Positions 3,854 through 42,590 of a DNA stretch of 64,000 nucleotides are shown in pieces. Under the pieces are notes generated by a model that saw nothing but the letters and a program-made list of their open reading frames with translations, searched no databases and was not told the DNA's origin. Where the stretch lies: assembly GCA_000002445.1 (NCBI GenBank), contig CH464491.1, positions 5,120,001 through 5,184,000 on the forward strand, read 5' to 3'. Position numbers and translations under genes: made by a program. The first letter of the stretch is position 1, and each line of letters begins with the position of its first letter. Source of the DNA: Trypanosoma brucei. Taxonomy: Eukaryota.

Positions 3854-5454
3854 TTAAGAGTTTCTGGTCTTGTTGTTTTATTTCTTTGGTTGTGGTTTAA
3901 AAATAACCGATTGATAGGGGCTATGGGGGGAGTATGTTGTTTTTGTTTATGGCTTTGTGTGTCACCATCACTCGGGTACTTGCGAGAATGTTTTCGGGGT
4001 TAAATAGTGTGTTTCAGCTAATTCAGTTGTCTTGTCAAGTTTAGTTGGTATTTGCTTTATTATACAACGACCTTCGCTGCATTTGTTGCTGAACTTTTTC
4101 ACCTTTAGTACAGCCACGGTTTTACAGTTTTTCAGTTATTAGACTGCGCTGAACTGTTGGGGGATACCCATGAACAGCAATCACCTCCTAATTCCCTTTG
4201 TGCATCAGATTGTTAAATTTTGTTGCAACTCTTTTGGAGTCTGCTTTTCTTTCACTTACTGCCGCTGTTTCTTGCTTCCTCCCGTTAAAGTTTTATTTGG
4301 TTTACGGTTTTTCTGAGTGTTTTAACAAACTTGTAAAAAAGCACGCACTACTGCCGAATAAAACGCAACATTTATTCCAACCTATACCATTAAACATATT
4401 TATATAAAACACTTTTCATTTATGGATTCAAATAGATTCCATATGTCGCTAACTTGCATACTAGACTTTGAGTTGAAATAAACAAGTTTGTCCGTTTTTA
4501 CCCGTGTTCACGATTGGCATATTACTGCTGCTCAGCATTACATCCAGATGTATTTTGGCGCTTGAGTATTGGTAATTTAGAGTCAGCTTTCACGTTTTTC
4601 GTCTATTTAGACTTCTTTATTGTTTCCATTGAACAATTACCTGTCTTTCTCCTAATAGTTAGTGACTTGTCACTACTTGTAGGTTGTACGGTATCTCTAT
4701 GCAAGATAATAATTTTGAGGGACCAGCCACTACTTCTCTCTACTTAATAAAGACTTTACAAAAATTAGTATATGTGCTATTTTAAGAAGTTTCCGTGTGT
4801 TTATACTAATTTTTCTTCCTGAGGTACACAAATACTTGTCTTAGTATTAAAATAATCTCCTGATATTATTATATTATATCCAAAAAACTTTGTCTGTTAG
4901 TATTACATCTGAGAAGAAAAATTTGATATTAATTTTCACTTAAAAATTCCCTCCTCTTTTTCTTTTCTTCCTCAGCTTCTTAATCACAGTTGGATATTAG
5001 GATTCTCAATCACGTTAAAAATTACAGTCCCAGTCAATAAAGCTGCTTCTAGTCTAAAAATTTTTAAACGAAACACGTAGCAACACCGGATACTTTCCGT
5101 CTTCCTAATTTATTACTTTTTCTTTGCTGCGATACCGTGTATTCTGTCATTTTGTTCCTCGTTATGTTTCGAATTTTCTATACTCTGTTGTTCTATCAGA
5201 AAATGGCTTAGCTAATACAGTTTAGTTGTACACTGCATTCTGTCTCTTTCTCATATACCTATTCATAGTATTGTCGTGTATGATGTTCCACACATCTTCT
5301 TTGTGCTTGAAATTAAGAAATCCTACCTTCTCTTTTTATTCGTCTATCCGCACTTCCTTTCATATTATTTCTAGTTCTCTCCCACTCCCTTTCTCACCCA
5401 CTCACTTACTCTTATTTCACCTTGTCATTGCTTTAAGTGATTCTATCTTGTCAG

Positions 5455-5552
5455 TCTACTGGGTTTTAATTACGACTATTATAATATTCGTATATACACA
5501 CTCACAACACTCTCTCCTATCATTATTATTATTATTATTATTATAACCCTAA
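5455..5552 (-). repeat. 70-bp repeat with short (ATT)n tract
   Basis: attataatattcgtatatacacactcacaacactctc…(att)8 on plus strand. Confidence 0.7.
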
Positions 5553-13719: not shown

Positions 13720-13735
13720 GTGTTAAAATATATCA
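13720..13735 (-). promoter_or_regulatory. VSG 3'UTR conserved 16-mer (TGATATATTTTAACAC), preceded by TTGCTACTTGAAAACTTC
   Basis: Plus strand gtgttaaaatatatcagaagttttcaagtagcaa is the reverse complement of the canonical VSG mRNA 3' end. Confidence 0.85.
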
Positions 13736-13797: not shown

Positions 13798-15378
13798 TTA
13801 GAAAAGCAAGGCCGCAAATGCAGCAGAAGCCACGCCGAGGGCGAATTTCTTGTTTACTAGAAAACTACCATTTCTGCACTTTTCCTTTTCAGGCTCATCT
13901 GTTTCACCCTCCTTACCCTTTCTCCATGCACAATTTTGCTTGTCGCCTGTTTTGTCATTTTCACAAGCGGTTTTATCTTTGTGCCCTGTGCACCAAGCTG
14001 CAGTTGTTCCCCCCTCTTTTGTTGTGCCTTCTGTTCCTGCTGTTTCCGGTGTTGCCGATCCTGGTTTAGATTTGCATTCCCCCTTTCCATCTTTTTCTTC
14101 CCATTTGCAGTTAGCTTTGATGCAAGTCTGGTTTGTTGTGTGAGTGCTACAGTTGGTCGTCGTCTGCCCTATTGTATGCTGTTTTTGAGTTCCTCCTTTG
14201 ATTTTCTCAAGTGCAGCGGCCGTAGCTTTTGCCGAGTCTACAATAACAACTGCATCTTTCTTTAGTTTTTTGATCTGTTCTATTATCTGTAATCCGCGTT
14301 GCTTGTTGCTTTCAAGTGTTTGAAGGCCTAGCGCTAGGTTTTTTAGCGGGGGTATCCAGGTTAGTTGTTCTACTATAGGCTGTGCCTTGCTTGCGAAGCC
14401 GCTGAACTCTAAGCATACGCCTTGCGCTTTGTTGCCGTCACATTTCGAGCTTGCGAACTGTCCTAGGTATGCGTTGCTGGTGTCTTTGTGTATGAGGTCG
14501 TTGAGGTTAGCTATGGCGGCTAGTATTTCTGTGCCGGTTATTTGTCCTGCGTCAAACGGACATGATTTTGCTAGCTTGCCTAGGTTCGCTGCCGTTACCC
14601 CGGTCGCGAATGTGCTGGCGGCTTCCCAGGTGCCGCCGTCGGCCGCCTGTACGCAAACTGCTGGGTCTACATTGTTTGTGCCTCTAAAGCAGACGCATGT
14701 GAGGGCTTCCAGGGCTGTTGCCGGGTTGCCGTTGCCGCCTGCAGCTTTGCATACCGAGTCCCTTGTGCCTGTTGTTGTGCCTGTAAAAACCTTTGATGGG
14801 TCTGGGTTGCTTGCTGGCTTTGCATTTTCTCCGTATACGGCTGTTGCTATGGTTTCTTTTGCCGTGTTATCCTTGGGTGCGTCGGACGGTGGTTGTATGC
14901 TCTGCAATTCTTTCGCCAGCTCGTGCGCTCTTGTTCTAATGTGCTTTAAGTGATCCCGGGCTAGAGTTTCTTGGTCTTCGGTTAGTTCCATTATGCCCGC
15001 CTGGTTTTTTTGTCCCCCCGTCGTTGCTTCCAGTTTTTTGGCGGCGATCTTTGTCCACCGAGGCCAGTTTTCTTCAAACCCTCTGCCATCCTGGCCCGCT
15101 GATTTTGGGTTATCGTGCGTTTTCTTCGCAGCTTTGTCGCTGTAAAACATTTCTTGCCAAGATCCTGTTGCTGCTGAAAAATTTACCATGTGTATGTAGT
15201 CCAGGTCGTCTTCTGGCATAGCCGGTATGGTCGGTATCTCTACTTCGCGCGGTGCCATCGCCACGAATTTGCACAAAGCCGCGTGTTCCTGGCGGTTGGC
15301 TCCGCCCACAATGTCTGTCCCTTCTGTTTTCGTCACTAACCAAAGCACAATCGTCATTGGTAGCATTATTGCGTACAT
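13798..15378 (-). CDS. VSG: VSG, intact (526 aa; signal peptide MYAIMLPMTIVLWLV; C-domain …CKWEEKDGKGECKSKPG…; GPI signal SFLVNKKFALGVASAAFAALLF)
   Basis: Uninterrupted minus-strand ORF with full VSG architecture and canonical 3'UTR. Confidence 0.9.
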   Translation of the reverse strand: MYAIMLPMTIVLWLVTKTEGTDIVGGANRQEHAALCKFVAMAPREVEIPTIPAMPEDDLDYIHMVNFSAATGSWQEMFYSDKAAKKTHDNPKSAGQDGRGFEENWPRWTKIAAKKLEATTGGQKNQAGIMELTEDQETLARDHLKHIRTRAHELAKELQSIQPPSDAPKDNTAKETIATAVYGENAKPASNPDPSKVFTGTTTGTRDSVCKAAGGNGNPATALEALTCVCFRGTNNVDPAVCVQAADGGTWEAASTFATGVTAANLGKLAKSCPFDAGQITGTEILAAIANLNDLIHKDTSNAYLGQFASSKCDGNKAQGVCLEFSGFASKAQPIVEQLTWIPPLKNLALGLQTLESNKQRGLQIIEQIKKLKKDAVVIVDSAKATAAALEKIKGGTQKQHTIGQTTTNCSTHTTNQTCIKANCKWEEKDGKGECKSKPGSATPETAGTEGTTKEGGTTAAWCTGHKDKTACENDKTGDKQNCAWRKGKEGETDEPEKEKCRNGSFLVNKKFALGVASAAFAALLF

Positions 15379-15542: not shown

Positions 15543-16731
15543 TTAACAGCTACACTCGTGCCAAAACGCTGTTATTTCTTTTATTTTGACTTTATTTTGT
15601 GACGGTGCCGAGATCAGCGCTGGTAGTGTGCTCACCAACCACATGTACTCATCCTCAGCAATGTGGTGTAAAACAATAAGGTTAGGATTACTTTCTAAAA
15701 ATCTATCTAGTGGCCTTTGTAAATGCATGACATAACGACAATCTTGCATATACACTGTTAATAAACTTTCAAATTTCAATTTACTCCTTATAACATCTCC
15801 AACTATAATATCTTCATTAAGTGCTCTAAAATCGATATAGGTTTTGAAATCTCTGAATTTAATTGGTGACTTTATTAATTTTTTCAGTGCTTCATAATCA
15901 ACAATTGCCATAACTACATACCTAGATAAAGTGGACGCATAACCTATCGTGTGCCATGTAATTTCATCACTAAATTCTTTAGGATATCCAACAGCTCTCC
16001 CCATATTCAATTTTTCTCTTGGAAGCAGCTCTAGATATTTTAGATACAGTGGCACTCTCATAAAAATATCATCATCTGCTTTCATAATATAAGGATTAGT
16101 TGTTTTGAATATTTCAACTTCAAATTTGAATTACAAATATGTATTTCTACTCCTAGTGAGTTCTGCCTCCCAGCCCCAATTACCCGCATCTCCAACTTCT
16201 TTATCTGTTGTAGGGTTCACATCGCACACGGGTAAAATAATAACATCCTGATATAAATACCCTTCTTCTCCAAGAACTTCTCTTAGCTCACAATTGTTAT
16301 TTGTGTGAGGTGAAAGAGCATATATTACAAGAAACTTTCCAGTAAAATTATTTACCTTTCTCGCCACTTCGGGATAACTCCAACACGTGTCTCTCTGTAA
16401 ATTCCTTCTTCTGAACCTTTTATCATTATCTATCGAAGGTATTCCAACTACAACCAAATAATCTTCAGTTTTCCAAATCCTCCTAACATCTTGCGAAATA
16501 AATTTCATATACTTATCTTCAACAATATCTAGTGAAATGGATTCACCTTCATTGAACAAGCCATAGAGTGACACACACAAACTGATGCACATAAAAATAA
16601 AAGGTAAACAACATACTGCTGCATAGATACATCTTATATAATTCAGAAAGCACTATTACCATACTAACGGAAACTTTGAAATACTTACTAAATGATAAAA
16701 ACCTGAGAATATGAAGTCGTTTGCAGCACAA
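15543..16731 (-). pseudogene. UDP-Gal/UDP-GlcNAc-dependent beta-1,3-glycosyltransferase-like (T. brucei GT67 family) pseudogene. In-frame TAA at 16128-16130 inside the catalytic domain; N-terminal membrane-anchor region in another frame
   Basis: ORFs 16131-16592 and 15543-16085 are in the same frame, separated by one TAA. Motifs RRRNLQRDTCW (R-x-x-I/L-R-x-T/C-W), DVIILPVCD and MKADDDIFM (K-x-DDD DxD) are typical of beta3-glycosyltransferases. Confidence 0.6.
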
Positions 16732-17439
16732 AGGTGTTTACATAAGTAATACCTTGATATACTTATGATATGGCTATTGAACGGTGTATGCTCAGTGCCT
16801 GCAGCTTACGGTTGAGCACGTGTGTACGGTTTCTTTTTCAGTCGTAAGATGCGGGCACATCTATGGAGTCACAACTACTTTCATTCCGCAGTTTTTTGTA
16901 TACATATTTCTATTCTATACGCTGTTATGTGAATTTTTGTAACCAGTTACACCGATGTGTACAAAGGATAGTAAGAATTTTACCAACATCCTGTGATAAC
17001 TACCCTATTCACCGTATTTCATTATCAAAATCTTTTCACCTTAGATAGATAAACTACAGTTACTACTATTTCTTCCACCATTTCTGCAGTTACATCAATC
17101 TGCTTTTTTGTAAAATGCGCGCATGATCGGTTTATCATGTATAACTTTCTTTTTCACTGGCCTCTTTCACATTCTTTTGATTCTCTGCTATGCTTTCCTT
17201 CATTTTTTGAATACTGCTCCCCTCGCTGCGGATAAGTTAGCGAGTTTATTTGGCTTATACACTGGACTATTTCCAACTATGATTGTCGACTCTGTCATCT
17301 CCTTGTGTATCATCATGACCCTCCTCATATTTGCGCATAAAACTGCGTATATTCCCTTCCCCTCTTTTCCTCACTAACCCGCTTTGCACCCTTGTCACTG
17401 ACTTAAGTGCATCCATTTCGGCAAGTCATTTACTCATCA

Positions 17440-17515
17440 ATACTACCCTTTTTATAATATTCGTATATGCACACTCACAACACTCTTATAATATTATTAC
17501 TATTAATATCGTGGT
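17440..17515 (-). repeat. 70-bp repeat
   Basis: ttataatattcgtatatgcacactcacaacactcttataatattattactattaata. Confidence 0.8.
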
Positions 17516-21577: not shown

Positions 21578-24500
21578 TTTAATATACCATGCGATTTCGG
21601 CCATCTCAGTATTGTGCCATGGTCCAGTATGCCGTCTCATCGTGGGAAGCCAAGAGCCAGCAGCGTTCCTTTCATGGGGGACACTGCTGTGCTCCGGCAA
21701 CGGCATCATACAGCACAGGGATCAGCAGCGTCTTGCTGGGACACCGTTCTTCATTTGTCGGTCCCTGGGCACGTGCCAGCGTGCAATCAGCAGTATCATC
21801 CGCACTAAGATGCTGCTGTCCGGTGATGTGGAAGAGAATCCCGGCCCGTCGTTGCGCGGGATGCAGTGAAACTGCACCTGGCTATCTCAAGGAAAGAGAT
21901 TAGCACTCCACAAAACCCTTGTTGATGAGCGGATCGCCTTTTGTCTGTTGAGCGAGACAAGGATGACGCCTGGAGAGGCGGCTTGCTTTAGCGTTGCTGG
22001 CTACCAATATCACGGAATAGCTCGTAACTGCAAAGGAGGTGGTGTATCAATACTAGTGAGGGGGGACCTACCAGTCGAGACCGGTATGGCCGTTGTTGGT
22101 CGCATTGAACAAGTTCATGCAACAATTCACCCTGCACGTGGAACGGCGCTGACTTTCACGTCGGCATACATCCCACCAAAACATACCTTCACGGCAACTG
22201 ACCTAGATACGCTTCTGACAACTGACGGTGCCCAGCTCATCGGTGCAGACGCTAACGCACAGGCGTTGACATGGGATCGCGCGAGCGCAGTAAATACCAA
22301 GGGTGAAACCCTCACACAGTGATGCATTGACAACCAGCTTCTGGTCTGCAACACTGGTGAGTGCACCAGGTACGCGCGCCACCACGGGGAGTCCACCCCT
22401 GATGTGACGCTGTCAAGGAATTGCACAGTGTACACGTGGACATCGCTGTATTCTCCCGATAGCGATCACCATCACATATTTTTCGACGTTATCGTTGGAG
22501 ACGACACAGATGCACTGAGTTGCCCGCGGCTTCAAACACCCATGTACGCATGGCTAAAAGCTGACTGGAGGAATTTCCGTCTCAAGGTTGACGAGCTCTG
22601 CAGGAAAATTAATAGAGAGAAGAACGTCAACACCCTGGAACAGAAATTGAGCTCCGCCATCCGCATTGCGACGAAGGTCTCCGTCCCCCGTGGCTGCAGA
22701 GCAACGCCACCACATTGGACATCTGAGCTCGCGAAACTCGATGAATAGATCGCTGTATGCGGACCCTCCCACCGAAGGGAAAAGTTTATAGCCACGCATA
22801 AGCAGATCCTGGACCGTACCACAAAGAAGAAATGGAGCACGCTATGCTCCAGACTTGCGGTGTCAGACCGCTGCAGTTGGCACATTGTCAAGAAGGTATA
22901 TCCGCCACGACCACTAACCACACCGGCGGTACTTGTTGATAACGCGGCCATCACGGACTACCGTCAAGCTGAGAGGTTCATTAAACTGTACTCGTCCCGC
23001 GCAAGAAGGCACCCCGACTCACACCCACCGACACCCATAAAGACGACAGCGAGTGAGTTTAGTCCCACCACGATGGCTGAACTACGAAGATCGATCAAAC
23101 TGCTACCGAGTGGATCCGCAGCCGGACCTGATTGCTTATACAACGATTCACTACAACATCTCGGTAGAACAGCGCTGAATGTTGTTCCGAGGCTATTCAA
23201 TGAGAGCCTACGAAAGGGAGTCGTGCCGCCTGCATGGAAGACTGGTGTTATCATCCCCATCCTGAAGGCCGGAAAAAAGGCGGAGGACCTCGATTCTTAC
23301 AGGCTTGTGACGCTCACGAGCTGTCTCTGCAAAGTCATGGAGCGCATAATTGCCGCGAGACCTAGAGACACTGTTGAGTCCCAGCTGACGCCGCAGCAAT
23401 CAGGCTTTCGCCCCGGATGCTCAACGCTCGAACAACTCCTGCACGTCCGCGCTGCCCTCTGCCGTCCCACGCACCAACCTCGTACGGGTGCTGTATTCTT
23501 CGACTACGCGAAGGCATTCGATACAGTAGACCGCGACAAAATTGCGAGGGAAATGCACAGAATGAAGGTATCACCCCACATTGTGAAGTGGTGCGTATCA
23601 TTTCTGGGTAACCGAGCTGGCAGAGTGAGATTCAAGGAGAAGCTCTCCAGAAGCAGAACATTTGAGCGAGGAGTGCCACAAGGAACTGTCCTTGGCCCAA
23701 TCATGTTCATTATTGTCATGAACTCGTTGAGCCAACGCCTTGCAGAAGTGCCGTTACTGCAGCACGGATTCTTTGCAGACGACCTGACGCTACTTGCGAG
23801 GCACACAGAGAGGGATGTCATCAACCACACGCTGCAATGCGGCCTAAACGTGGTGTTACAGTGGTCAAAAGAGTACTTCATGTCTGTCAACGTAGCGAAA
23901 ACAAAGTGCACACTCTTCGGGTGTATAGAGCGCCACCTCCTTACATTACAACTGGACGGCGAAAGAATAGGAGCTGACAGGACACCGATGCTTCTAGGAG
24001 TAACATTCCAGTGTCTGCAGGGGATGGCAACACATGCGGCCGAAACGAGACGCAAGATGGACTTCCGACTACTGCAGATAGCAGCCATCTCAGCTTCTAC
24101 ATGGGGGCCAAGACGACAAGTACTGAGAGGTTTTTATCTAGCACTCGTACAGGCACACACCATGTATGGCATTGAGGTATGGTACTGGGACGCTTCGGAA
24201 CGAAGTCGGGACCTACTTGCAGCAGCGCAACACAAGGGTAGTCGCATCATAGCCGGTATACCGCATGGGACGCGCAAAGAGGACTCTCTGCTGGAAGCAA
24301 AACTCCTGCCACTCAAGACGACCACTCTTGTGCGCAGAATGAAGTTCATGCTGATGTGTGAGTCACGAGGCGGATGTTTGCGCCGCAGTGCTGAGGAAGT
24401 ATATCACAGCAAACACCTAGTCACAGCCCTATATTCCCGCATCATGCGGTCCTACCCCCACCTCCTCATTGAGCCACGGGAGCACCCACTAGAGACATCG

Positions 24501-26832
24501 ACGCTCCGCCACAGCTGCCGACCGATATTTCACACGCAGATAAAGCCTGTGTGCGCTGATGACCCTGACGATGTCAAAAGGGAGGCTTCCGAAAAGTGGA
24601 TTGAACGGCATTTTGCACGGAGGGGGAAGGAGCCACCGCGGCGAGAGCACTACGAATTGTGGACTGATGGATCCGTGTCCCTCGGTGAGAAGTCCGGAGC
24701 AACTGCCCTGCTCTATAGAAACAACACGCTGATTTGCGCACCCAAAACCGGAGCAGGGGAACTCTCATGCAGTTACAGAGCGGAATGCGTAGCATTAGAG
24801 ATAGGACTGCAACGGCTTCTGAAATGGCTTCCGGCATACAGAAGCACAACGAGCAGGTTGTCCATCTTCTCTGACTCGCTGTCAATGTTAACAGCACTGC
24901 AGACAGGCCCCCTAGCCGTAACGGACCCAATTCTAAGACGACTATGGAGGCTTCTGTTTCAAGTTCAGAGAAGGAAGATACGTATCCGACTGCAATTTGT
25001 GTTTGGCCATTGTGGCGTGAAACGGAATGAGGTTTGTGACGAAATGGCCAAAAAGGCCGCAGATTTACCACAGTTGCGAGACACATGGATCCCCAACATC
25101 ATTGCTTATGCGAAGCGAGTGCTTAGGTCGGAAGAAGTCTATGAGAACACTCATAGGTTTGGTATCACGGGCAACCACTTTCCAACAAAACCTAAGAAAG
25201 AAGAACTGACGAGGGAAGAAGAAACGGCACTGGCACGCTTTCGGGTTGGGTCTTCAAGACACTATGGATGGATGTTGCGAAAGATCAACCCGAGTGTGCC
25301 TCCACAGTGCCGATGGTGCAACCCGCAACATGCAGAGATAGGGCCAACAATACAAACGGCCCCACCTATTGCGACACGCACTCTTCAGAGAACCTCCTAA
25401 CCAACTAAATGTACGGAATGTGATTCCACATACCAATGCCGCTCGAGTGCTGTAACGCACATGGTAAACAAACATGGCTTTGTGCGAGCTGATGCCCTCC
25501 GGAGGATCAAATACGGCGATGCAACACCTGCAGTGGACATCCCCCCGGAGCCCCCTCCAGTGGTGGCGATCGTTCCTCTACCATCGAGCACACGAGTCCC
25601 GATGAGACCGCAGGTGCTTCATTGTACCATCTGTGCCTCCAAATTCGCAGTTCCAGGCCGACTATTACACCACCTTAGAACAATACATGGCATAGGTAGC
25701 GGTAGTTGCCGCGTGAAAAGGGGGCTGAGAGAACGAGGACTCAGTGCAAGGAGATGTTAGCGCCCCAGCAGCGCCAGCCCCTCAGGATACACGGAAGCTG
25801 CCGTTTCAACGTGACCTGTGCGAGGCGAGCTTCGGTACACGCCCTTCCCTGTCACTACACAAGAAATTCAAACATAAGAGCATAGTGACGGAGGACGGTA
25901 CCGTGGTGTTGGTGCAATTCCCTCGTAAGCGTGCCCGTGAGGGAAACGTTGACGTCCCGGGGAAAGGCGAGGTGCAGTGTGGTGTGTGCCAAAAAGTGCT
26001 CAGTTGCAGGGACTCCCTCATCCGACAATGTAAGGCATTTCACAAAGGTGAGGGAGTCGAGCTTAAATGCAGCAAAAGCACAAAATTGTGTGCCACTGAT
26101 TCCCCGCATACAAACGCATTCATGTTGGTGTGGCCGACATGCGGAAGGCAGTGTGCTAGCAAAAGTGGCCTCACCCTACATCAAAAGAAGATGCACGGTA
26201 TGAAGGTAGAGCGCACTGTTACCAGCCAACGCGGCGACTGCGAAGAAACGTCGCTGCACTTGATGAGCTGTCCCGGTTTGAAGGAGTTACGTGTCAGGTT
26301 TGCGGTAGAAGGTGTGTGTGTGTGCAGGATATATGCTTCTCCAAAAGGCTGGCGCAATTTATCATTGCGGTTGAACGGAGCCGGCCGCAGGTGAAGTCCT
26401 CACCTAAGGTATCAGTCATACAACCCACTCTCCCTTCTGCAACTTCCCCCCTTATTGCCGAGTGTGGAGCTAGCAGGAAAAGCACCGGACACAGAAATAG
26501 CCCAGACACCCTCAGAGACAGAGAGGGTATGCAGTTAACAAGCAACAAAAACAGAAAGAGGGAGAGAGAATAATAAACGAATAACAAAAATCAAAATAAA
26601 AGGATTGCTAATTGACATCTTTGGGAGAGTCCGGGGTGGGGGGCTTGTCGCCCCATCTGCTGTATTCCGTTCAACTGCGGAGCTACAACAAAAATTATAG
26701 AGAGTGTGTTAGGCTGAACAAAAAAGGGAGACTCTGCCACAGTCGCCAGACCGATAGCATCTCAGGGCTCTACGGTGATGGCTGATGGCCGCGCCAGTGG
26801 GAGGAAACTCTCACGAAGGCACGAAGAAAAAA
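21578..26832 (+). mobile_element. ingi: ingi non-LTR retrotransposon, full length (~5.25 kb), degenerate. Diverged 5' end; ORF broken into 21948-22322 (APE), 22404-22748, 22860-25400 (RT/RNase H), 25461-25760 and 25744-26394 (C2H2 fingers); 3' A-rich end
   Basis: 5' end homologous to RIME/ingi Pr77 (…ggtccagtatgccgtctcatcgtgggaagccaagagccagcag); 2A peptide LLSGDVEENPGP at 21813-21848; RT motif FADD; near-identical to ingi-2 over most of its length. Confidence 0.9.
22860..25400 (+). CDS. ingi-1 reverse transcriptase / RNase H region (846-aa ORF; element ORF otherwise broken)
   Basis: LTSCLCKVMERI, GFRPGCST, FFADDLTLL RT motifs; ELWTDGS RNase H-like region. Confidence 0.85.
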   Translation: MSDRCSWHIVKKVYPPRPLTTPAVLVDNAAITDYRQAERFIKLYSSRARRHPDSHPPTPIKTTASEFSPTTMAELRRSIKLLPSGSAAGPDCLYNDSLQHLGRTALNVVPRLFNESLRKGVVPPAWKTGVIIPILKAGKKAEDLDSYRLVTLTSCLCKVMERIIAARPRDTVESQLTPQQSGFRPGCSTLEQLLHVRAALCRPTHQPRTGAVFFDYAKAFDTVDRDKIAREMHRMKVSPHIVKWCVSFLGNRAGRVRFKEKLSRSRTFERGVPQGTVLGPIMFIIVMNSLSQRLAEVPLLQHGFFADDLTLLARHTERDVINHTLQCGLNVVLQWSKEYFMSVNVAKTKCTLFGCIERHLLTLQLDGERIGADRTPMLLGVTFQCLQGMATHAAETRRKMDFRLLQIAAISASTWGPRRQVLRGFYLALVQAHTMYGIEVWYWDASERSRDLLAAAQHKGSRIIAGIPHGTRKEDSLLEAKLLPLKTTTLVRRMKFMLMCESRGGCLRRSAEEVYHSKHLVTALYSRIMRSYPHLLIEPREHPLETSTLRHSCRPIFHTQIKPVCADDPDDVKREASEKWIERHFARRGKEPPRREHYELWTDGSVSLGEKSGATALLYRNNTLICAPKTGAGELSCSYRAECVALEIGLQRLLKWLPAYRSTTSRLSIFSDSLSMLTALQTGPLAVTDPILRRLWRLLFQVQRRKIRIRLQFVFGHCGVKRNEVCDEMAKKAADLPQLRDTWIPNIIAYAKRVLRSEEVYENTHRFGITGNHFPTKPKKEELTREEETALARFRVGSSRHYGWMLRKINPSVPPQCRWCNPQHAEIGPTIQTAPPIATRTLQRTS

Positions 26833-28414: not shown

Positions 28415-28430
28415 GTGTTAAAATATATCA
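28415..28430 (-). promoter_or_regulatory. VSG 3'UTR 16-mer, with poly-C13 tract (plus-strand poly-G at 28476-28488) in the 3'UTR
   Basis: ggtgttaaaatatatcagaagttttcaaatagtaaaa; ttgaggggggggggggggaag. Confidence 0.85.
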
Positions 28431-28489: not shown

Positions 28490-30010
28490 TTAAAAAAGCA
28501 AAAATGCAAGCAAAAGAGGGACCTTAATTACAGCTGAAATAAAAACCGTTCCCTCTTTGACTTTGCACTCATTCTTTTCCTTGTTCCAAGTGCATTTTGT
28601 CGTGTCACAATTAGTTTCGGACGAGGCTTTGCAATCAGCTGCGCTTGCTTTATTATCCCCGTCTTTCTTTTCTCCTGTTGCTGCTTCCGGTGTTTCCGTT
28701 CCTGGTTTGGATTTGCACTCCCCCTTTCCACCTTTTTCTTCCCATTTGCAGTTAGCTTTGGTGCAAGTCTGGTTTGTTGTGTTAGTGTTACATTCCACTT
28801 CTGATTTTGCTTTGTCTTTGGCTTGACTGTGTGACGGTTGGTTCGCTAGTTGGTGGATTTGCCTCGCTGCATAAGTGGCTTCGGCGGCTGTTCTTAAGGT
28901 CTTAAGGGCCGCTGCTGCCGTCCGTAGTTTTTCTTTTTTTTCTTTTCTTTCATTTAGCAGTCGCGCAGCTATTTCGAGCTGCTGCATCCACTTTATTCTT
29001 GTTGTTTTGGGCGTCAAGTCCATGTTATAGTAGCTTTCGTAGTCTACACAAATGTGGTCATCGTCTCCGCTGCAGTGGTTGGCGGTTGACTTCCCTAGTA
29101 TCTGATTTTTTGCTGTGTCGCCGTGGTACCTGCCTATCATTTGCTCCAGGTTCGCTATTGCCGATGCTATGTTCGCTGCCGTGGCTTCCGGCTGCGATAC
29201 CTCCGCGCAATTGTCGAGCAGTTTCTTCGCGGTTTGTTCTACGTTTGTTGCGCCGCTGGTCCAGCCTGTCGTTAGCTGAGTATGTGTGCAGCCTTTGCTT
29301 TCTGCTGCTGTTTTCCCAGCGCAAAGGCAAAGGACGTCATAGGCTAGGTTGTCGCCGACGTTGGTTCCTTTGCAGTCGTCCTGCCCGCATTCCGCTTCAT
29401 TCGGTGGCTTTAGCGCCGGAAGGCCCTCGCCGTCTTTTTGTTTGTCACCATACAGAGCTGCGCGCAGTGCTGTTTTTATCGCCTTTAGTTCTCGACCGTT
29501 GGCAGCGGTGATGCCCTCCGTGTAGGTGCGCGCGAGAGCGGCTGCCTCTTCGGCGTAGACAGCTAGTTGCTTCGCCGTTTTGGCTTGCGCCGGGCCCTGT
29601 TTAGGTGGTGGGTTTTGTTCTAGCCATTTTTTGTTAGCAGCGTTCGGATATGTTGCCTTTTCTGTTTTGAGCCAGTTTGGCCATTTTTGGCCCCAGTATG
29701 ATTCAAATTCTTGGTTTGTGAAATTCCCTTTTGAGGCTTGCCAGTCGTGGCTTGCGCCACCGCCGCCGAATTTGGTGCGCCATTCAGCGCTGGCTGCTGT
29801 CATGTTAAGTTTGTCGATCTCGAATGCGTCACTGGCAACACTGTCGTCGGATTTTAGCGGTTCTGGATCTGACTGCGCTAGTCTTATTAGCTTACAAAGC
29901 GTCCTGTATTCGGCTGCTGATTTTCCAGCACTTGTTGCCGCTTCTGCTCCTGGCATCAAAAGTTTTATAACATACAAAAAAGTTAAGAAATACCTTGTGT
30001 AACTTCGCAT
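28490..30010 (-). CDS. VSG: VSG, intact (506 aa; signal peptide MRSYTRYFLTFLYVIKLLMPGAEA; GPI signal TVFISAVIKVPLLLAFLLF)
   Basis: Uninterrupted ORF; C-domain CTKANCKWEEKGGKGECKSKPG; canonical 3'UTR. Confidence 0.9.
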   Translation of the reverse strand: MRSYTRYFLTFLYVIKLLMPGAEAATSAGKSAAEYRTLCKLIRLAQSDPEPLKSDDSVASDAFEIDKLNMTAASAEWRTKFGGGGASHDWQASKGNFTNQEFESYWGQKWPNWLKTEKATYPNAANKKWLEQNPPPKQGPAQAKTAKQLAVYAEEAAALARTYTEGITAANGRELKAIKTALRAALYGDKQKDGEGLPALKPPNEAECGQDDCKGTNVGDNLAYDVLCLCAGKTAAESKGCTHTQLTTGWTSGATNVEQTAKKLLDNCAEVSQPEATAANIASAIANLEQMIGRYHGDTAKNQILGKSTANHCSGDDDHICVDYESYYNMDLTPKTTRIKWMQQLEIAARLLNERKEKKEKLRTAAAALKTLRTAAEATYAARQIHQLANQPSHSQAKDKAKSEVECNTNTTNQTCTKANCKWEEKGGKGECKSKPGTETPEAATGEKKDGDNKASAADCKASSETNCDTTKCTWNKEKNECKVKEGTVFISAVIKVPLLLAFLLF

Positions 30011-30221: not shown

Positions 30222-31334
30222 TTACTGCAATTTGTGGCAGCTAAACTCTGACCATGTGCTGTCGAGTCGCTCGAGTTTGAACAGTACTGTGCTGTCCTTA
30301 TTTTTTTCTTTTAGTTGGCTTCTCAACTGAATGTATTCATCTATTTTTACGTGGTGGAAAACAATAAGGTTGGGATTTTCTTCTACAAATTTGTCGAGTG
30401 GCCTTTTCACATTCATTACATAATGACAATCTTGCATATCGACTGTCAGTAAACCATCAAGTTTCAATTTGGTCCTTATAACTTCGCCAATCATAATATC
30501 CTCATTAAGTGCTCTGAAATCCATATATGATTCAAAATGTCTGAATTTAAGTGGTGACTTTACTGAGTGTTTCAAAGGTTCATAATCAACAATTGCCATA
30601 ACTACATCCCTAGATAAAGTGGACGCATAACCTATCGTGTGCCATGTAATTTCATCACTAAATTCTTTAGGATATCCAACAGCTCTCCCCATATTCAATT
30701 TTTCTCTTGGAAGCAGCTCTAGATATTTTAGATACAGTGGCACTCTCATAAAAATATCATCATCTGCTTTCATTATATAAGGATTAGTTGTTTTGAATAT
30801 TTCAACTTCAAATTTGAATTACAAATATGTATTTCTACTCCTAGTGAGTTCTGCCTCCCAGCCCCAATTACCCGCATCTCCAACTTCTTTATCTGTTGTA
30901 GGGTTCACATCGCACACGGGTAAAATAATAACATCCTGATATAAATACCCTTCTTCTCCAAGAACTTCTCTTAGCTCACAACTGTTATTTGTGTGAGCTG
31001 AAAGTGCATATACTATAAGCAACTTCCCAGTAAAATTATTTGACTTTCTTGCCACTTCAGAATAACTCCAACACGTTTCCCCCTGTAGATTCCTTCTTCT
31101 GAACCTCTCAGCATTATCTATTGAAGGTATTCCAGCTACAACCAAATAATCTTCAGTTCTCCAATTTTGCCTTACATCAGTGGTAACAAATCTCATATAC
31201 TCATCCTCGACAATGTCAAGTGAAATAGTATCTCCTTCACTAAACAAGCTGTATAGCGAAACGAGTAGATTAATCTCCATAACAATGAAAGATAAGCAAC
31301 CTACAGCCGCATAAATACATCTTATACACTTCAT
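30222..31334 (-). pseudogene. Second GT67-family beta-1,3-glycosyltransferase-like pseudogene; same in-frame TAA (30816-30818) as copy 1
   Basis: ORFs 30819-31334 and 30222-30773 are in the same frame, separated by TAA; ~440 bp (about 30590-31030) nearly identical to 15890-16330 while flanks are ~80% identical. Confidence 0.6.
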
Positions 31335-32214: not shown

Positions 32215-32405
32215 TGCCGGAAAATAAACACTCACAACATTCTTCTGTAATTATCATTATTATTATTATTATTACAATTATTATTATTACTGCTCTTATT
32301 ATAATATTCGTATAAACACACTCACAACACACTCTCATCATTATTATTATCATTACAATTATTATTATTATTACTGCTCTTATTATAATATTACTGTCAT
32401 AACCC
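32215..32405 (-). repeat. 70-bp repeats (about 2-3 units)
   Basis: ctcttattataatattcgtataaacacactcacaacacactctc … repeated with (att)n tracts. Confidence 0.85.
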
Positions 32406-32639: not shown

Positions 32640-34237
32640 CTTGAATGATACCAAACTCATAAAAGAAGCAGAAATCAGTGAAATTTTTTTATTGACAAGA
32701 AAACTGGAATTCATACATTTGCCTTCGATCCATCCACAAGCAGCTTTTTCATTTTTCGGAATTTCACCTTTCACTGCAGCACATTCTTCAGGGGTTTTGC
32801 TTGGCCAAACTTATCTGTTTTTTGTTTCTCCATTTCCTTCAGCTGTTTCTGCCTGTGTTGTTTGTTGTGCTACGTGTGTGCCGTATTCAATTTGCAGTAT
32901 TCTCCATTCTCGTCATTTTTACCTTTCCATTCGCAGATTGGTTTCTTTCCTTTGCACTCAGTTGCCACTTTTATCGCTTAGCACTGTTCTTTTTGCTTTT
33001 GCTCTTGTGCTTTACTTCCTGTTGGTGATGGGTTTGGTGTTGTCGCCGGTGCTAGTGTTGTCTCATCCTCGTCGAATAGTAGGTTGGTGGAATCATTGAG
33101 TAGCTGTAAACTGCGTGTAATGGCTGTCATTTCCTTATTGGCGTCTGCCGCTGCTTCTTTGGCTAACGCCGCGTCGCGTAGATTTCTAAGCCACTCTATT
33201 TCTTTGGCTGGGCCGGTCACATCTGACTCTTTGTACTTCACGCACCTGCCGCCATTGCTATCTTTATTTCCTTTGCAGCCTTCGCTTCCGTCGCCTCTTA
33301 TTGAGCCCAGTACATATTTATGAGTTTTCGCCGTTGCCGGCGTTTGTCGCCCGAGCAGTTCTGCCAGTCTGAGTCTGATCGCTTCTACGGCTGCCAGAGT
33401 TAATTTTACCTGCGTTTTCCTCTTCTGACAAGCGGTCTTCAAAGGTGTCCAGTTTGCTTGTGTCTTTGAGTTTCCTCCACAGTTATCGTTGCTGCCGCTC
33501 CCGGTAGCTGCTGTGTCTGTCCCGCACACCTTGGCGCCATTGGTCGCGTCACCATTGTCATATGCACAAAGGCAAAGAAGGTCTAGTTTGAGTGAGCTCC
33601 CTGCTTTGAGGTGAGTAGGCGTTGTTGTCCCCTAGCAAATGACTGCGCGGTTGCCTGGCCCATAGTTTGTTGTTGCTTCTGTGTTGCCCGCTCCGAAGCC
33701 GGCGTTATTTAAAAGTGTCAGAATGTTTGTTTCCTGGGCGATTTTTAGTGTTGTCTGGGCCGCTTTGTAAAATTCAAAGGCCCTTTCGGTGTTCAAACGT
33801 AATTTCGCGAGCTGGCCCTTGCTAAGCTTTTTCGTCGACCACTTTGCGTAGTCGGCTTTGTTGGGGTCTGTTTCGATTGCATTCTTATATTTTTTCCAGA
33901 AGGTATAGTATTTTTCCCACCGTCCATTTTCGGTTCCTGTTTTGGGTACGGCAGGTTTGTCTTGCAGTTCACTTAAATCCTTTGTGTGGTCGATGTCGGC
34001 TTTAAAAGTGCTGGCTGCAATTGACATGTTTATGGAACCTATGTTAATTGCTACTGCACTAGCGCTGTCTGTTGCCGGTGCTAGGTCGGGTGCTGCTGTT
34101 GCTGTGTGAAATGCGTCGCATAGCAGAGCGAACTCTTGAGCGTTTTCGTCGGCTTGCGAATTTGCCGCTGTCTGGTGCGGTGTCTGGAAAGTCGTCGGTA
34201 GTAACACAAATACCGCTACTTTTAGCATAGAATACAT
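32640..34237 (-). pseudogene. VSG: VSG pseudogene (N-domain ORF 33632-34333 with signal peptide MYSMLKVAVFVLL; C-domain ORF 32978-33529; degenerate GPI tail CMNSSFLVNKKISLISASFMSLVSFK in another frame)
   Basis: Two VSG-like ORFs in different frames; C-domain CKGNKDSNGGRCVKYKESD. Confidence 0.75.
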
Positions 34238-35584
34238 GGCTTGAATCCTTGTGTCTTCCTTAATCATGTAAGTGAGTAAACAGTTATGCGACTCGCCTTT
34301 GCGTTGCAGCGATTTATCTGGTTGCCTCCCCATGTCAGTTCCAGAAACAAGCTCGTAGACTTCACATCGTTGTCATATGTCTGGATCTTTTGCCTTTAAA
34401 GCAACATTTGATTATGTGGCCGTGGTGTTCTTCCTTTCTATGCTGTGGCGACGTTAAATTCCGCCACTCCATTTATATAAATTTTCAACCAAGGATCGGT
34501 CTCTATATCGCTGTCAGTTTGGTGAGTGCACAAAACAAAATGATAAAACCGCTGCAAACAAGTGAATAGCATGTATTAAAAGAAAAAAACGCAAAATAAA
34601 AAAATTGGCATAAAGATATACATACATATGTAAATTACCACACTAAATGGTATCGTTTTTTTACGTGTTTAACTTGTAAAAAGGTTAGTTCCACCGTAGA
34701 AAGAGGTGAAAATTCTAAAAACGTTTAACGTAAATTTTGTTTTTTGCTAATGTCTTTTGCTAATTTCAACCTATATCATACTGTGTTCATTTATATAGTT
34801 CTTTCATACACGACTAGAATTTTCTTTCTGGCATTCTTTAAAATACCGCAGATTTTGGCATACCTAAGACATTTTATATTTGTGTTTTTAAATGTCTTCT
34901 ACCATCTAGTAGTTTCAATGTATCCTCATGACTCCGAGTGACCAGACACCGCTGTTGCTTAACTTTGAGTCGGACGGTGTTGTGCTTCTTTTTTAGATCT
35001 TTTAGTATGGATATGGTTCACTTTTTCTTAAGACTTGGAATTTTGGAGAAAGAAAGTGCTTTCCTTACTGCTTCCACCTTGTTAATACGATACATTATTT
35101 TTGCATCAATCAAAACTCTTACGTTAATTATTCGTTTCTTGAGAGGTCTTAATGTCTGGCCTTTATACATGTCTTAAATTTGTGGAGTATCAGCATTGAT
35201 TGTCTTTACTTAATATAGATCCTTCATTATTTCATATACGTGTGTTCTTCTTCTTATATCGCCGGTCTTTACTGGATCTTTAGTCAGCTTTTTCTTTTGC
35301 TTCATTTCCTTTCAGTTTCTGACAAAAAAGTAACTCAACTACTTTTGCAAGGTTTACTTTTGTCATTAATGATTTACGTATCCTTCGTTTTGTGTGTAAT
35401 AATGTACATTGCCTTTAATGTGTTTGAAACTTTGCATATTCCATCTTTTTCCATTTGTCTTTTTGCATTTCCTTTCATAACAATATTCCTCGCGCTCTCT
35501 CGCTCATCCACTGCCCCACTCACACTGCACCACTGTCGTTGTCTTAAGCCCTTCTATATTTGTCATCTATTTAGTCTCTACCAC

Positions 35585-38802: not shown

Positions 38803-39899
38803 TCACGTTTTATTAGCTTTAAACAAATACCCTTCTTTAAACGCGTCCCCACAAATTCTTTCATATCGAAAATGCCAATTCTCTCCGGACACTGCATAAG
38901 TTTCTATTTTCCCCATATCCTTCGAATTAAATTCTCCTCCTTTCAACCTTTTATACCAAGTAAGATTTTTCACAATTAACTTCGCTTTTTCCTCCCATGC
39001 AATAGGCTGTCCGGGAAAATGAATGAATGGGGCTTCTCCAATCACACCACTACTGGGAATAGTAAAAAATATCTCTTTATAATCCAATTCAATCATTCCT
39101 CTCTTCAAAACAAATCTCTGTCCAACAGCTTCCTCCTGTGTAACACTCCATATTAGCAATGGCGTATAGATACTCTGCTCTGACCACCACTCCTCGCTCC
39201 CTTTAAGCAATTCTCCAAAAGCATATTCAAATTTCTTAAATGCCCAAACTCTTGCGATTATATTACCACCTCCAAGGTAAGGTTTTCCGCTAGGAGGTGA
39301 TTTTAGTAAATGGGGTAATTTTTATCATATTCTTTTTGGTAACCAACATTAAAAAACCAAAAACATCTCTGTACATGCTCCTTGTGATCTGAGTTCATGA
39401 GCAAGTTCAACTGAGGAGCATAACACTCCGGAGTTGCTATAAATAAAATAGGGGAAATATGCTTCTCTTTTACTGTATCCTCTTCACTAAACTTCTCTTC
39501 ATTTTCCGCAGTATTTTGCATAAACTATTACACAGCATTCTCAGACTTCTGTTAACTAACAATAACATCAGATCCATCTGCAGTTATTACAATATTCTCA
39601 TCACTTGCATTCTGGTTTTCTAAAAATTCCATAATCAACTGCGGCCTCTTAACATGCTTATACAAACCTCCCATCGCAATTGAAATAATTTCAACATGGC
39701 TTAGTTTAGCACTCAATATGAGGATACACCATCCTTGTGTTGCGTGAGTTTGAACGGCAACCACAAATACTCTATGTTTCTTATTATTATTCTTTGTCAT
39801 ATTTGTTATGTTATTTGTCTCATTACCGTCATGAGATATTGAGTATAAACACACGAAGTGCAGAAAAGCCAGATAAAGCCCACATAAACTATATTTCAT
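38803..39899 (-). pseudogene. Secreted, N-glycosylated subtelomeric family member (tentatively ESAG3-like), frameshifted pseudogene (ORFs 39552-39899, 39303-39521, 38803-39210)
   Basis: Signal peptide MKYSLCGLYLAFLHFVCL, NETNNITNMTKNNNK sequons, three consecutive ORFs in different frames; paralogue of 62731-63832. Family name is from recollection, not from a search. Confidence 0.5.
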
Positions 39900-40334
39900 T
39901 TGCTGATAAAACTTTAAAATTTAAATGGATTATGAGGAAAATTTAAAAAAAACTTATGAAAGAAGATTTAAGCCCAAGAAGAATTTTAAATTTCAACAAG
40001 ATTTGAACCTCAACTGCAAAACATACCACTCTTAATCTAAATGTAAAATCCAACCATTTAGCGTTGACAGTGGCCTCTACCATTGTAATTAATATAGAGA
40101 TCCCATAAGCCTTGCTTACTGGACTATATCTAAATCTTATTATCACATCCATAGTACCGTTTTTTATCATTATGTTGACTGTTTTTTTGTGTTTGAACTG
40201 GGCATAGTTTATTTCCTCTCTCCCTCTTCTCTGCCTCTCTTTTAAAAATATTTTTGTTCTGCCAAACAGTGCCATACCTACACCGCCACCTTGCTATTCT
40301 ATAAAGCGTGTCTGGTTTGTGTTTTCATATAGTT

Positions 40335-41770: not shown

Positions 41771-41847
41771 CCCCTGGCGATGCCGGCCACCTCAACGTGG
41801 TGCCAGGGTCCAGTACCCCGTATCATCGGGGGAAGCCAAGAGCCAGC
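41771..41847 (+). promoter_or_regulatory. Pr77-like 5' hallmark of ingi/L1Tc (internal promoter / ribozyme region reported for L1Tc)
   Basis: First ~77 nt of the element match the conserved ingi/RIME 5' end as I recall it. Confidence 0.6.
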
Positions 41848-42134
41848 AGAGTTCCTTTCATGAGGAACACTGCTGTGCTCCGGCTACGGCATCATACAGC
41901 ACAGGGATCAGCAGCGTCTTGCTGGGACACCGTTCTTCATTTGTCGGTCCCTGGGCACGTGGCTAGCGTGCCATCAGCATTGTCACCCGCACTAAGATGC
42001 TGCTGTCCGGTGATGTGGAAGAGAATCCCGGCCCGTCGTTGCGCGGGATGCAGTGGAACTGCGCCGGGCTATTTTAAGGAAAGAGATTAGCACTCCACAA
42101 AACCCTTGTTGATGAGCGGATCGCCTTTTGTCTG

Positions 42135-42509: not shown

Positions 42510-42590
42510 TGCATTGACAATTAGTTTCTGGTCTGCAACACTGGTGAGTGCACCAGGTACGCGCGCCACCACGGGGAGTCCACCCCTGAT

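What the first reader, a model, noticed from the sequence alone, without database searches (positions are those of the whole stretch)
15543..16731. Pair of GT67/GT31-type glycosyltransferase pseudogenes sharing an identical in-frame TAA and a ~440-bp near-identical tract: recent gene conversion between array positions 14.7 kb apart
Copies 15543-16731 and 30222-31334 both sit between a 70-bp repeat and an intact 16-mer VSG. Both carry the R-x-x-I/L-R-x-T/C-W, DVIILPVCD and KADDD motifs of beta3-glycosyltransferases. Both are interrupted by the same TAA between …LTRSRNTYL and FKFEVEIF…MKADDD. Nucleotide identity is nearly 100% across about 15890-16330 versus 30590-31030 but about 80% outside. 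The N-terminal anchor region is in another frame. This is a patch-like conversion tract, showing that ectopic recombination operates on non-VSG genes embedded in the array.
Basis: seen in the sequence. Interest (0 to 1): 0.5.

Follow-up and report, generated by a model that had tools for sequence, protein, structure and literature searches.

The report
Gene-conversion patch between two glycosyltransferase pseudogenes
Two dead copies of a sugar-transferase gene sit 14.7 kb apart in a Trypanosoma brucei surface-antigen gene array, and they share a roughly 400-bp near-identical patch carrying the same stop codon, which is a clear but unsurprising case of copy-and-paste recombination between neighbouring gene copies.

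Summary
The window is T. brucei brucei TREU927 chromosome 11, inside a VSG array. Two GT67/beta3-glycosyltransferase-superfamily relics lie on the minus strand: A at 15543-16646 and B at 30222-31334, in an ungapped register 14,688 bp apart.

A 403-bp core (15891-16293 = 30579-30981) differs at 2 sites (0.5%). The coding flanks differ at 20-22% (Fisher p = 4e-28). Both copies carry TAA at the same codon (16131-16133, 30819-30821). That codon is TGG in two T. equiperdum DNA homologues. The residue is Trp in 20 of 26 family proteins and is never a stop.

Selection cannot explain the patch. Synonymous divergence is 0.012 in the core against 0.63 in the flanks, and both copies are only 77.7% identical to an outgroup across the core.

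The best reading is one short-tract gene conversion, or conversion of both copies by a third, that carried the nonsense codon with it. Donor and direction are not determined.

- The N-terminal anchor is in frame in both copies.
- A has CTG where B has ATG.
- The tract is about 403 bp, not 440 bp.

Subtelomeric GT pseudogenes and segmental conversion are both well known in T. brucei, so this is an ordinary new instance.

The parts
15543..16646 (-). GT67-family glycosyltransferase pseudogene, copy A. It has CTG at the start-codon position and an in-frame TAA at codon 172. Its C-terminal ORF is annotated as Tb11.1840 / CAJ17163.
   Evidence: Translation and lesions. Homology to TREU927 UDP-Gal/UDP-GlcNAc-dependent GTs. 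Annotation.
30222..31334 (-). GT67-family glycosyltransferase pseudogene, copy B. It has ATG at 31334, and the in-frame TAA at codon 172 is its only ORF-breaking lesion. Its two halves are annotated as Tb11.0730 / CAJ17049 and Tb11.0740 / CAJ17050.
15891..16293 (-). Conversion tract in copy A: 403 bp with 2 mismatches to B, at 15920 and 16086.
30579..30981 (-). Conversion tract in copy B, the counterpart of 15891-16293.
16131..16133 (-). Shared nonsense codon TAA in copy A. It replaces the family-conserved Trp (TGG).
30819..30821 (-). Shared nonsense codon TAA in copy B.
17433..17512 (-). Single 70-bp repeat, about 790 bp upstream of copy A. It marks the upstream edge of the VSG cassette that contains A.
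32225..32400 (-). 70-bp repeats (about 2.5 units), about 890 bp upstream of copy B.
13798..15378 (-). Full-length b-type VSG (EAN80677 / XP_829789) downstream of copy A. The 16-mer lies at 13720-13735.
28490..30010 (-). Full-length b-type VSG (EAN80679 / CAJ17051) downstream of copy B. The 16-mer lies at 28415-28430.

Best explanation
A and B are old paralogues of the trypanosome GT67 (beta3-glycosyltransferase-superfamily) family. Each lies inside a silent VSG cassette, in the order 70-bp repeat, GT, VSG, 16-mer, in the chromosome 11 array of T. brucei TREU927.

Their coding flanks diverged to about 20% under purifying selection. Recently, a homologous-recombination repair event copied about 400 bp of the catalytic core from one copy into the other without reciprocal exchange (short-tract gene conversion). 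The likely steps are a break, resection, strand invasion of the ectopic paralogue 14.7 kb away, and synthesis-dependent strand annealing.

The tract carried a TGG-to-TAA nonsense codon and other derived substitutions. At least one of the two copies therefore acquired its inactivating stop by conversion rather than by its own mutation. Two point substitutions have accumulated in the tract since.

Shown: the mosaic identity pattern, the shared stop, the sense codon in relatives, the selection signature in the flanks, and the exclusion of regional conservation.

Inferred: the repair mechanism, the non-reciprocity, and the idea that A (which also lacks ATG) is the older pseudogene and the donor.
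For: Divergence in the tract against the flanks:
- 2/403 mismatches in the tract against 56/251 and 71/353 in the flanks. Fisher p = 3.8e-28. The 207-bp identical run was never reached in 1e5 permutations.
- dS is 0.012 in the tract and 0.63 in the flanks.
- Flank dN/dS is 0.27. Flank mismatches by codon position are 44/22/61, chi-square p = 1.2e-4. The flanks therefore diverged under coding constraint.

Outgroup comparison:
- The T. equiperdum homologue L001 is 77.7% identical to both A and B across the tract, similar to the flanks at 72-80%.
- Triplet site patterns are 89 AB|E against 1 and 1 in the tract, and mixed elsewhere.

The stop codon:
- TAA lies inside the tract.
- The codon is TGG in L001 and L002.
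- The residue is Trp in 20 of 26 family proteins.

Other support:
- The tract carries 14 amino-acid states shared by A and B but differing from the nearest paralogues, so it is not an invariant region.
- Non-coding DNA upstream is only about 58% identical, and downstream homology stops near the GT stop codon. The loci are therefore not recent duplicates.
- The neighbouring VSGs are only 26% identical.
Against: - Only two copies are in the window, and the rest of the TREU927 genome could not be searched at the DNA level. A third copy that converted both cannot be excluded.
- Direction is undetermined. A-specific and B-specific substitutions in the flanks are balanced at 22 against 25.
- The outgroup L002 is somewhat more similar to A and B in the core (86%) than in the N-terminal flank (77-79%). 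The core does evolve a little more slowly, but nowhere near enough to explain 99.5%.
- No read-level data were available to verify the assembly.
Confidence: 0.8

Rival explanations
1. A third donor. An unseen GT67 pseudogene elsewhere in the genome, carrying the TAA, independently converted both A and B, or converted one of them, which then converted the other. The A-B identity would then reflect a shared donor rather than a direct A-B exchange.
For: - The family has many subtelomeric fragments. At least one more TREU927 ORF of the same subgroup, P0161, also starts at MKADDD just after the stop position.
- The family shows older mosaicism. A's N-terminal 175 bp groups with the T. equiperdum homologue rather than with B (31 AE, 12 AB and 12 BE sites).
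- The literature reports concerted evolution of subtelomeric UGT lineages.
Against: - It needs two events with virtually identical end points on both sides, whereas a single A-B event explains the shared boundaries.
- P0161 differs from A and B at 6 of 68 residues in the tract portion, so it is not the donor.
- None of the five closest annotated paralogues shares the 14 derived tract residues.
Confidence: 0.1
2. Recent duplication with later erosion of the flanks. A and B would be recent duplicates, the 403-bp core would be what remains of that duplication, and both flanks of one copy were later overwritten by conversion from other paralogues.
For: A's N-terminal region is 87-93% identical to the T. 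equiperdum homologue over about 16553-16613, but only 65-77% identical to B. This shows that flank segments have been exchanged with other lineages.
Against: - It needs at least two additional conversion events, one on each side, instead of one.
- The non-coding DNA around the genes is only about 58% identical or not alignable.
- The adjacent VSGs are unrelated beyond family level, at 26% identity. No trace of a recent larger duplication exists.
- The 3' flank shows a star-like pattern (12 BE, 11 AE, 6 AB) rather than affinity of one copy to a foreign lineage.
Confidence: 0.06
3. Assembly or consensus artefact. Reads from one copy would have been used to build the consensus of the other, creating a false identical patch.
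For: Subtelomeric arrays are repetitive and hard to assemble (noted for GT genes). No reads are available here.
Against: - Two mismatches persist inside the tract, and the boundaries are clean.
- The two copies were submitted under well-separated protein accession numbers (CAJ17163 against CAJ17049-51). This suggests, by inference, separate BAC entries.
- A 400-bp repeat flanked by 80%-identical unique sequence is easily resolved by Sanger reads (established knowledge).
Confidence: 0.03
4. Selective constraint. The core would be kept identical by purifying selection on the catalytic domain or on an embedded functional DNA or RNA element.
For: - The tract covers the catalytic DxD region.
- The core is slightly more conserved against L002 (86%) than the N-terminal flank is.
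Against: - Both copies are broken by a stop inside the tract.
- Synonymous sites are equally identical (dS 0.012 against 0.63).
- The outgroup L001 is only 77.7% identical over the tract.
- No Rfam family matches anywhere in the window.
Confidence: 0.01

Closest known systems
Segmental (mosaic) gene conversion among silent VSG genes and pseudogenes in T. brucei subtelomeric arrays (e.g. Hall et al. 2013, PMC3708902, listed; general knowledge of the field)
   Same: - A short, sharply bounded patch is transferred between diverged (about 80% identical) paralogues in the same silent arrays.
- It presumably uses the same homologous-recombination machinery.
   Different: - The substrate is a non-VSG passenger gene, and both partners are silent array copies.
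- No expression-site selection is involved.
- The outcome is homogenisation and spread of a nonsense codon rather than new antigen diversity.
Concerted evolution and subtelomeric expansion of trypanosomatid UDP-glycosyltransferase (UGT / GT67) lineages 1 and 7 (Silva Pereira and Jackson 2018, PMC5853035)
   Same: - Same gene family and same subtelomeric setting.
- That paper notes species-wise clustering of paralogues (concerted evolution) and transposition between subtelomeres.
   Different: - That study never mentions pseudogenes.
- It reported that T. brucei genes 'rarely recombine' and that expansion 'is not driven by ... gene conversion'.
- Here a specific conversion tract is seen between two pseudogene copies.
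Pseudogene-to-gene conversion that transfers inactivating mutations (e.g. human CYP21A1P to CYP21A2; from general knowledge, not tested here)
   Same: A nonsense mutation travels within a short conversion tract between tandemly linked paralogues.
   Different: - Here both copies are now pseudogenes.
- Which copy, if either, was functional before the event is not known.
- No phenotype is implied.
Annotated T. brucei GT67 enzymes (TbGT3, TbGT8, TbGT10, TbGT11, TbGT15; Duncan et al. 2021, PMC8477195)
   Same: - Same superfamily by sequence.
- Shared features: the DxD motif (KADDD), the N-terminal RRxLQRxxW motif, the C-terminal EDxxxG motif, and type II anchor architecture.
   Different: - A and B cannot encode a full-length enzyme.
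- They are excluded from the 19 putative functional genes, which are counted 'excluding predicted pseudogenes'.

Membership tests
GT67 / beta3-glycosyltransferase superfamily (trypanosomatid UDP-Gal/UDP-GlcNAc-dependent GTs; GT31-like Pfam PF01762) | Significant sequence homology to annotated family members | tested here: met
- tblastn confirms both loci.
- The wider family spans T. congolense, T. cruzi, T. theileri, T. equiperdum and T. b. gambiense.
- The literature places these genes in CAZy GT67.
GT67 / beta3-glycosyltransferase superfamily (trypanosomatid UDP-Gal/UDP-GlcNAc-dependent GTs; GT31-like Pfam PF01762) | DxD metal/nucleotide-sugar binding motif | tested here: met
   MKADDDIF is present in both copies. 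K189 and D191-D193 are invariant in the 27-sequence family alignment.
GT67 / beta3-glycosyltransferase superfamily (trypanosomatid UDP-Gal/UDP-GlcNAc-dependent GTs; GT31-like Pfam PF01762) | Flanking beta3GT motifs: an N-terminal RxxLQRxxW-type motif and a C-terminal (E/D)DxxxG motif | tested here: met
   - RRRNLQRDTCW in A and RRRNLQGETCW in B. B has Gly at the nearly invariant R85.
- NEDIIVGDV in A and NEDIMIGEV in B, aligned with HEDVMVGR-type motifs in the family.
GT67 / beta3-glycosyltransferase superfamily (trypanosomatid UDP-Gal/UDP-GlcNAc-dependent GTs; GT31-like Pfam PF01762) | Pfam Galactosyl_T (PF01762) match above the gathering score | tested here: not met
   - A scores 16.2 bits against a cutoff of 23. 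B has no hit.
- Intact or less damaged homologues pass at 23.1-32.1 bits.
- The family profile matches the solved GT31 enzymes B3GNT2, B3GALT6, C1GALT1 and B3GALT5.
- The sub-threshold score fits degraded pseudogenes (stop plus a K-to-N change in the matched segment). It does not indicate a different family.
GT67 / beta3-glycosyltransferase superfamily (trypanosomatid UDP-Gal/UDP-GlcNAc-dependent GTs; GT31-like Pfam PF01762) | Type II membrane topology (N-terminal hydrophobic anchor) | tested here: inconclusive
   An in-frame hydrophobic stretch is visible: IYAAVGCLSFIVMEINLLVSLY in B and IYAAVCCLPFIFMCISLCVSLY in A. No transmembrane predictor was run.
GT67 / beta3-glycosyltransferase superfamily (trypanosomatid UDP-Gal/UDP-GlcNAc-dependent GTs; GT31-like Pfam PF01762) | Uninterrupted ORF encoding a full catalytic domain (a functional member) | tested here: not met
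   - TAA at codon 172 in both copies.
- A also has CTG in place of ATG.
- They are family-derived pseudogenes, not functional members.
Gene-conversion tract (segmental, non-reciprocal homologous transfer between paralogues) | Sharply bounded block of much higher identity than the flanks, beyond chance | tested here: met
   99.5% against 78-80%. Fisher p = 3.8e-28. The run of 207 identical bases was not reached in 1e5 permutations.
Gene-conversion tract (segmental, non-reciprocal homologous transfer between paralogues) | Homogenisation includes synonymous sites, so it is not explained by protein-level selection | tested here: met
   dS is 0.012 in the tract against 0.63 in the flanks.
Gene-conversion tract (segmental, non-reciprocal homologous transfer between paralogues) | The region is not intrinsically conserved in an outgroup, and phylogenetic signal switches at the tract edges | tested here: met
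   - A-E and B-E identity is 77.7% in the tract.
- The tract has 89 AB|E sites against 1 and 1. The flanks show mixed or AE-dominated patterns.
- The second outgroup, L002, is 86% identical in the core.
Gene-conversion tract (segmental, non-reciprocal homologous transfer between paralogues) | Identified donor and recipient; non-reciprocity | not testable with these tools
   - T. brucei genomic DNA outside the window could not be retrieved.
- Lineage-specific substitutions in the flanks are symmetric at 22 against 25.
Silent VSG cassette of a subtelomeric array | 70-bp repeat upstream, VSG ORF with N- and C-terminal domains, and the conserved 16-mer in the 3' UTR | tested here: met
   - 70-bp repeats.
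- VSG_B plus Trypan_glycop_C domains.
- Exact 16-mers at 13720 and 28415, with 0.01 matches expected by chance.
- The VSGs are exact matches to TREU927 chromosome 11 proteins.

The most novel reading that the evidence does not exclude
The GT relics may be more than passive passengers. They could be recurrent, conserved components of a subset of VSG cassettes, lying between the 70-bp repeat and the VSG. The same order is seen in two T. equiperdum contigs. In that position they would provide about 1 kb of upstream homology that pairs distant cassettes and channels recombination between them. In that reading the 403-bp tract is a footprint of cassette-to-cassette pairing. Nonsense mutations would spread through the GT67 family by conversion from array pseudogenes, and this could erode functional subtelomeric paralogues.
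Probability: 0.12. Interest if true: 0.45.

Novelty: new member of a known kind. Interest (0 to 1): 0.2.

Why it matters
This is a clean, datable example of short-tract ectopic gene conversion acting on a non-VSG sequence inside a silent VSG array. It shows an inactivating codon being propagated by recombination rather than by independent mutation. It modestly qualifies a published statement that T. brucei UGT genes rarely recombine (PMC5853035), a study that never mentions pseudogenes. It could also serve as a neutral marker for measuring tract length and rate of array recombination without the confounding effect of immune selection. It does not reveal a new mechanism, gene family or element.

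Tried and rejected
- **Retrieving TREU927 DNA for the other family members or for the window's own genes.** The look-up of encoding contigs found nothing for the window VSG or for P0001, P0002 and P0161. A genome-wide search for a third donor copy was therefore impossible. Only two T. equiperdum loci could be fetched.
- **Inferring the donor from asymmetric decay.** A-unique and B-unique amino-acid changes in the flanks are balanced at 22 against 25, so this is uninformative.
- **An embedded RNA element as the cause of conservation.** There are no Rfam hits at gathering score in the whole window.
- **Selection on the catalytic core.** Rejected by dS and by outgroup identity.
- **A larger segmental duplication carrying GT plus VSG.** Rejected: the VSGs are 26% identical, upstream non-coding DNA is about 58% identical, and the downstream spacer is not alignable.
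- **Direct Pfam assignment of A and B.** Sub-threshold or absent. Family membership had to be shown through homologues.
- **Literature search for the old gene identifiers Tb11.0730, Tb11.0740 and Tb11.1840.** No papers found.
- **The first protein search.** The word-indexed search missed the exact-match fragments P0129, P0019 and P0130 (one search compared), so negative results from that tool were not relied on.
- **Structure prediction.** Not run, because it would not bear on the recombination question.

Full report
**Source and setting.** Five VSG ORFs of the window are exact matches to T. brucei brucei TREU927 proteins (EAN80677, 80679, 80680, 80681, 80682) on a 5.26-Mb contig, chromosome 11. 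The window is a typical silent VSG array. VSG genes lie on the minus strand. Conserved 3'-UTR 16-mers are present: 5 matches against 0.01 expected. 70-bp repeats sit upstream of each VSG. Two ingi-like retroelements lie on the plus strand.

**The observation.** Two glycosyltransferase-like sequences lie on the minus strand. Copy A runs from its stop at 15543-15545 to the start-equivalent codon at 16644-16646. Copy B runs from 30222 to its ATG at 31334. tblastn with family proteins finds only these two in the window. They align without gaps at an offset of 14,688 bp.

- Core (15891-16293 = 30579-30981): 2 mismatches in 403 bp, at 15920 and 16086.
- 3' coding flank: 56 mismatches in 251 bp.
- 5' coding flank: 71 mismatches in 353 bp.
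- Both edges are abrupt.
- Fisher's exact p is 3.8e-28. The longest identical run is 207 bp, against a maximum of 107 bp in 100,000 permutations of the mismatch positions.
- Both copies carry TAA at codon 172 (TTA on the plus strand at 16131-16133 and 30819-30821), inside the core.

Each copy lies 790-890 bp downstream of a 70-bp repeat. Each lies 165-210 bp upstream of a full-length b-type VSG that has its 16-mer.

- The N-terminal hydrophobic anchor is in the same frame as the rest of the ORF in both copies.
- Copy A has CTG where B has ATG, with stops immediately upstream, so A has two lesions and B one.
- The tract is 403 bp, not about 440 bp.
- The N-terminal motif reads RRRNLQ(R/G)xTCW.
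- A third family motif, NEDI(M/I)(I/V)G, is also present.

**Is TAA a replaced sense codon?** Yes.
- The five closest TREU927 homologues all have Trp there, in the context TYLWFKF.
- In a 27-sequence alignment spanning T. brucei, T. congolense, T. cruzi, T. theileri and environmental relatives, the column is W in 20, L in 2, T in 2 and Y in 2. It is never a gap or a stop.
- Two T. equiperdum DNA homologues (L001 and L002) read TGG.
- TGG to TAA needs two substitutions, so independent origin in A and B is very unlikely.

**Is the block conversion or conservation?**
- Synonymous divergence is 0.012 in the tract and 0.63 in the flanks.
- The T. equiperdum homologue L001 is 77.7% identical to both A and B across the tract. 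This matches its 72-80% identity in the flanks.
- L002 is 86% identical in the core and 77-79% in the N-terminal flank.
- Among triplet-informative sites, the tract has 89 that group A with B, and 1 for each alternative. The flanks are mixed.
- The tract encodes 14 residues shared by A and B but different from the nearest paralogues, including K168N at a nearly invariant Lys.

The region is therefore not intrinsically invariant. The identity reflects recent common ancestry of that segment only.

**History of the flanks.**
- Flank dN/dS is 0.27.
- Flank mismatches by codon position are 44/22/61, chi-square p = 1.2e-4. Most A-B divergence therefore accumulated under coding constraint.
- Upstream non-coding DNA is only about 58% identical. 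Downstream homology ends near the stop codon.
- The adjacent VSGs are 26% identical.

The two loci are thus old paralogues, not a recent duplication. Because the stop lies within the tract, at least one copy received it by conversion. B has no other ORF-breaking lesion while A has also lost its ATG. That makes A-to-B transfer attractive, but it is not proven: copy-specific substitutions are symmetric at 22 against 25.

[quoted passage not shown] The literature places this T. brucei family in CAZy GT67, derived from a beta3GT ancestor, with 19 genes 'excluding predicted pseudogenes'.
- Pfam PF01762 (Galactosyl_T, GT31) passes its cutoff in less damaged homologues.
- It does not pass in A or B.
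- The family profile matches solved GT31 enzymes: B3GNT2, B3GALT6, C1GALT1 and B3GALT5.

A and B are family-derived pseudogenes. Their ORF halves already exist in public databases as hypothetical proteins Tb11.0730, Tb11.0740 (B) and Tb11.1840 (A).

**Context in the literature.**
- Subtelomeric GT pseudogenes in T. brucei and T. evansi, and their variability between strains, are documented.
- Silva Pereira and Jackson (PMC5853035) describe subtelomeric expansion and concerted evolution of UGT lineages 1 and 7. They report that T. brucei genes rarely recombine and that expansion is not driven by gene conversion. Pseudogenes are not mentioned in that paper.
- No paper mentions the three old gene identifiers.
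- Segmental conversion among silent array VSGs is a well-established process (papers listed; general knowledge).

**Mechanism.** The most likely cause is one short-tract, non-reciprocal homologous-recombination event between the two paralogues, in direct orientation 14.7 kb apart. The partner could be on the same chromatid, the sister chromatid or the homologue. Two point mutations followed. The pattern is shown. The repair pathway (a break, strand invasion, and synthesis-dependent strand annealing) is inferred from general knowledge.

Rivals:
- A third donor converting both copies (about 0.10).
- A recent duplication with both flanks later overwritten (about 0.06).
- An assembly artefact (about 0.03).
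- Selective constraint (about 0.01, effectively refuted).

**Extra observations.**
- A's N-terminal 175 bp is closer to the T. equiperdum homologue than to B (31, 12 and 12 informative sites). This indicates older mosaicism in the family.
- The order 70-bp repeat, GT relic, VSG recurs in T. equiperdum contig L001. A GT relic followed by a VSG fragment recurs in L002.

**Verdict.** It is an ordinary new instance of a known process in a known gene family, and of low to moderate interest.

Noticed in passing
window 21591-26830 and 41777-47015 (+ strand): Two copies of a 5.2-kb ingi-like non-LTR retroelement, 96.6% identical and 20.2 kb apart, on the strand opposite the VSGs. The second copy has a 1388-aa ORF with reverse transcriptase, RNase H and a C2H2 zinc finger. 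The first copy's ORF is broken into pieces of 846 and 216 aa.
   Followed up: partly
window 16471-16646 versus L001 about 5310-5490: The N-terminal anchor and stem region of copy A is closer to a T. equiperdum GT pseudogene than to copy B. Identity to the T. equiperdum copy reaches 87-93% over about 16553-16613, and informative sites split 31 AE, 12 AB and 12 BE. This looks like an older mosaic or recombination event in the same gene family.
   Followed up: partly
L001 4449-8240 and L002 998-2990 (T. equiperdum OVI contigs CZPT02000575 and CZPT02000975): The same cassette layout recurs in another Trypanozoon genome. In L001 a 70-bp repeat is followed by a degenerate GT67 pseudogene with frameshifts, then by a b-type VSG 300-470 bp downstream. 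In L002 a GT relic is followed by a VSG fragment. GT relics therefore seem to be recurrent passengers in the region between the 70-bp repeat and the VSG.
   Followed up: partly
window 14038-14151 versus 28679-28792: The two VSGs downstream of the GT copies are only 26% identical overall. They nevertheless share a 114-bp stretch at 92% identity in the C-terminal-domain coding region (protein ...TNQTC.KANCKWEEK.GKGECKSKPG...). No other VSG in the window has this stretch. It could be a second, older exchanged patch between the same two cassettes, or simply a shared C-terminal-domain subtype.
   Followed up: no
P0161, P0019, P0129, P0005, P0025, P0032 (database proteins): Many annotated 'Hexosyltransferase' entries of TREU927 and T. 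equiperdum are 177-203-aa C-terminal fragments that start at or near MKADDD or MSRKTYLW. These annotated proteins are therefore likely pseudogene ORF remnants. P0161 belongs to the same subgroup as A and B, and its gene could not be inspected for the TAA.
   Followed up: partly
window 39064-40069 versus 62992-64000; 53047-53572 versus 56131-56667: Further diverged (74-76% identical) duplicated segments of 0.5-1 kb lie in the array. Judging only by their coordinates relative to the window's VSG ORFs and 70-bp repeats, the first pair probably lies in cassette sequence upstream of VSGs.
   Followed up: no
window 33632-34333 (-): A 233-aa ORF with a partial VSG_B domain (profile positions 6-182 of 352), probably a VSG pseudogene or fragment within the array.
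   Followed up: no
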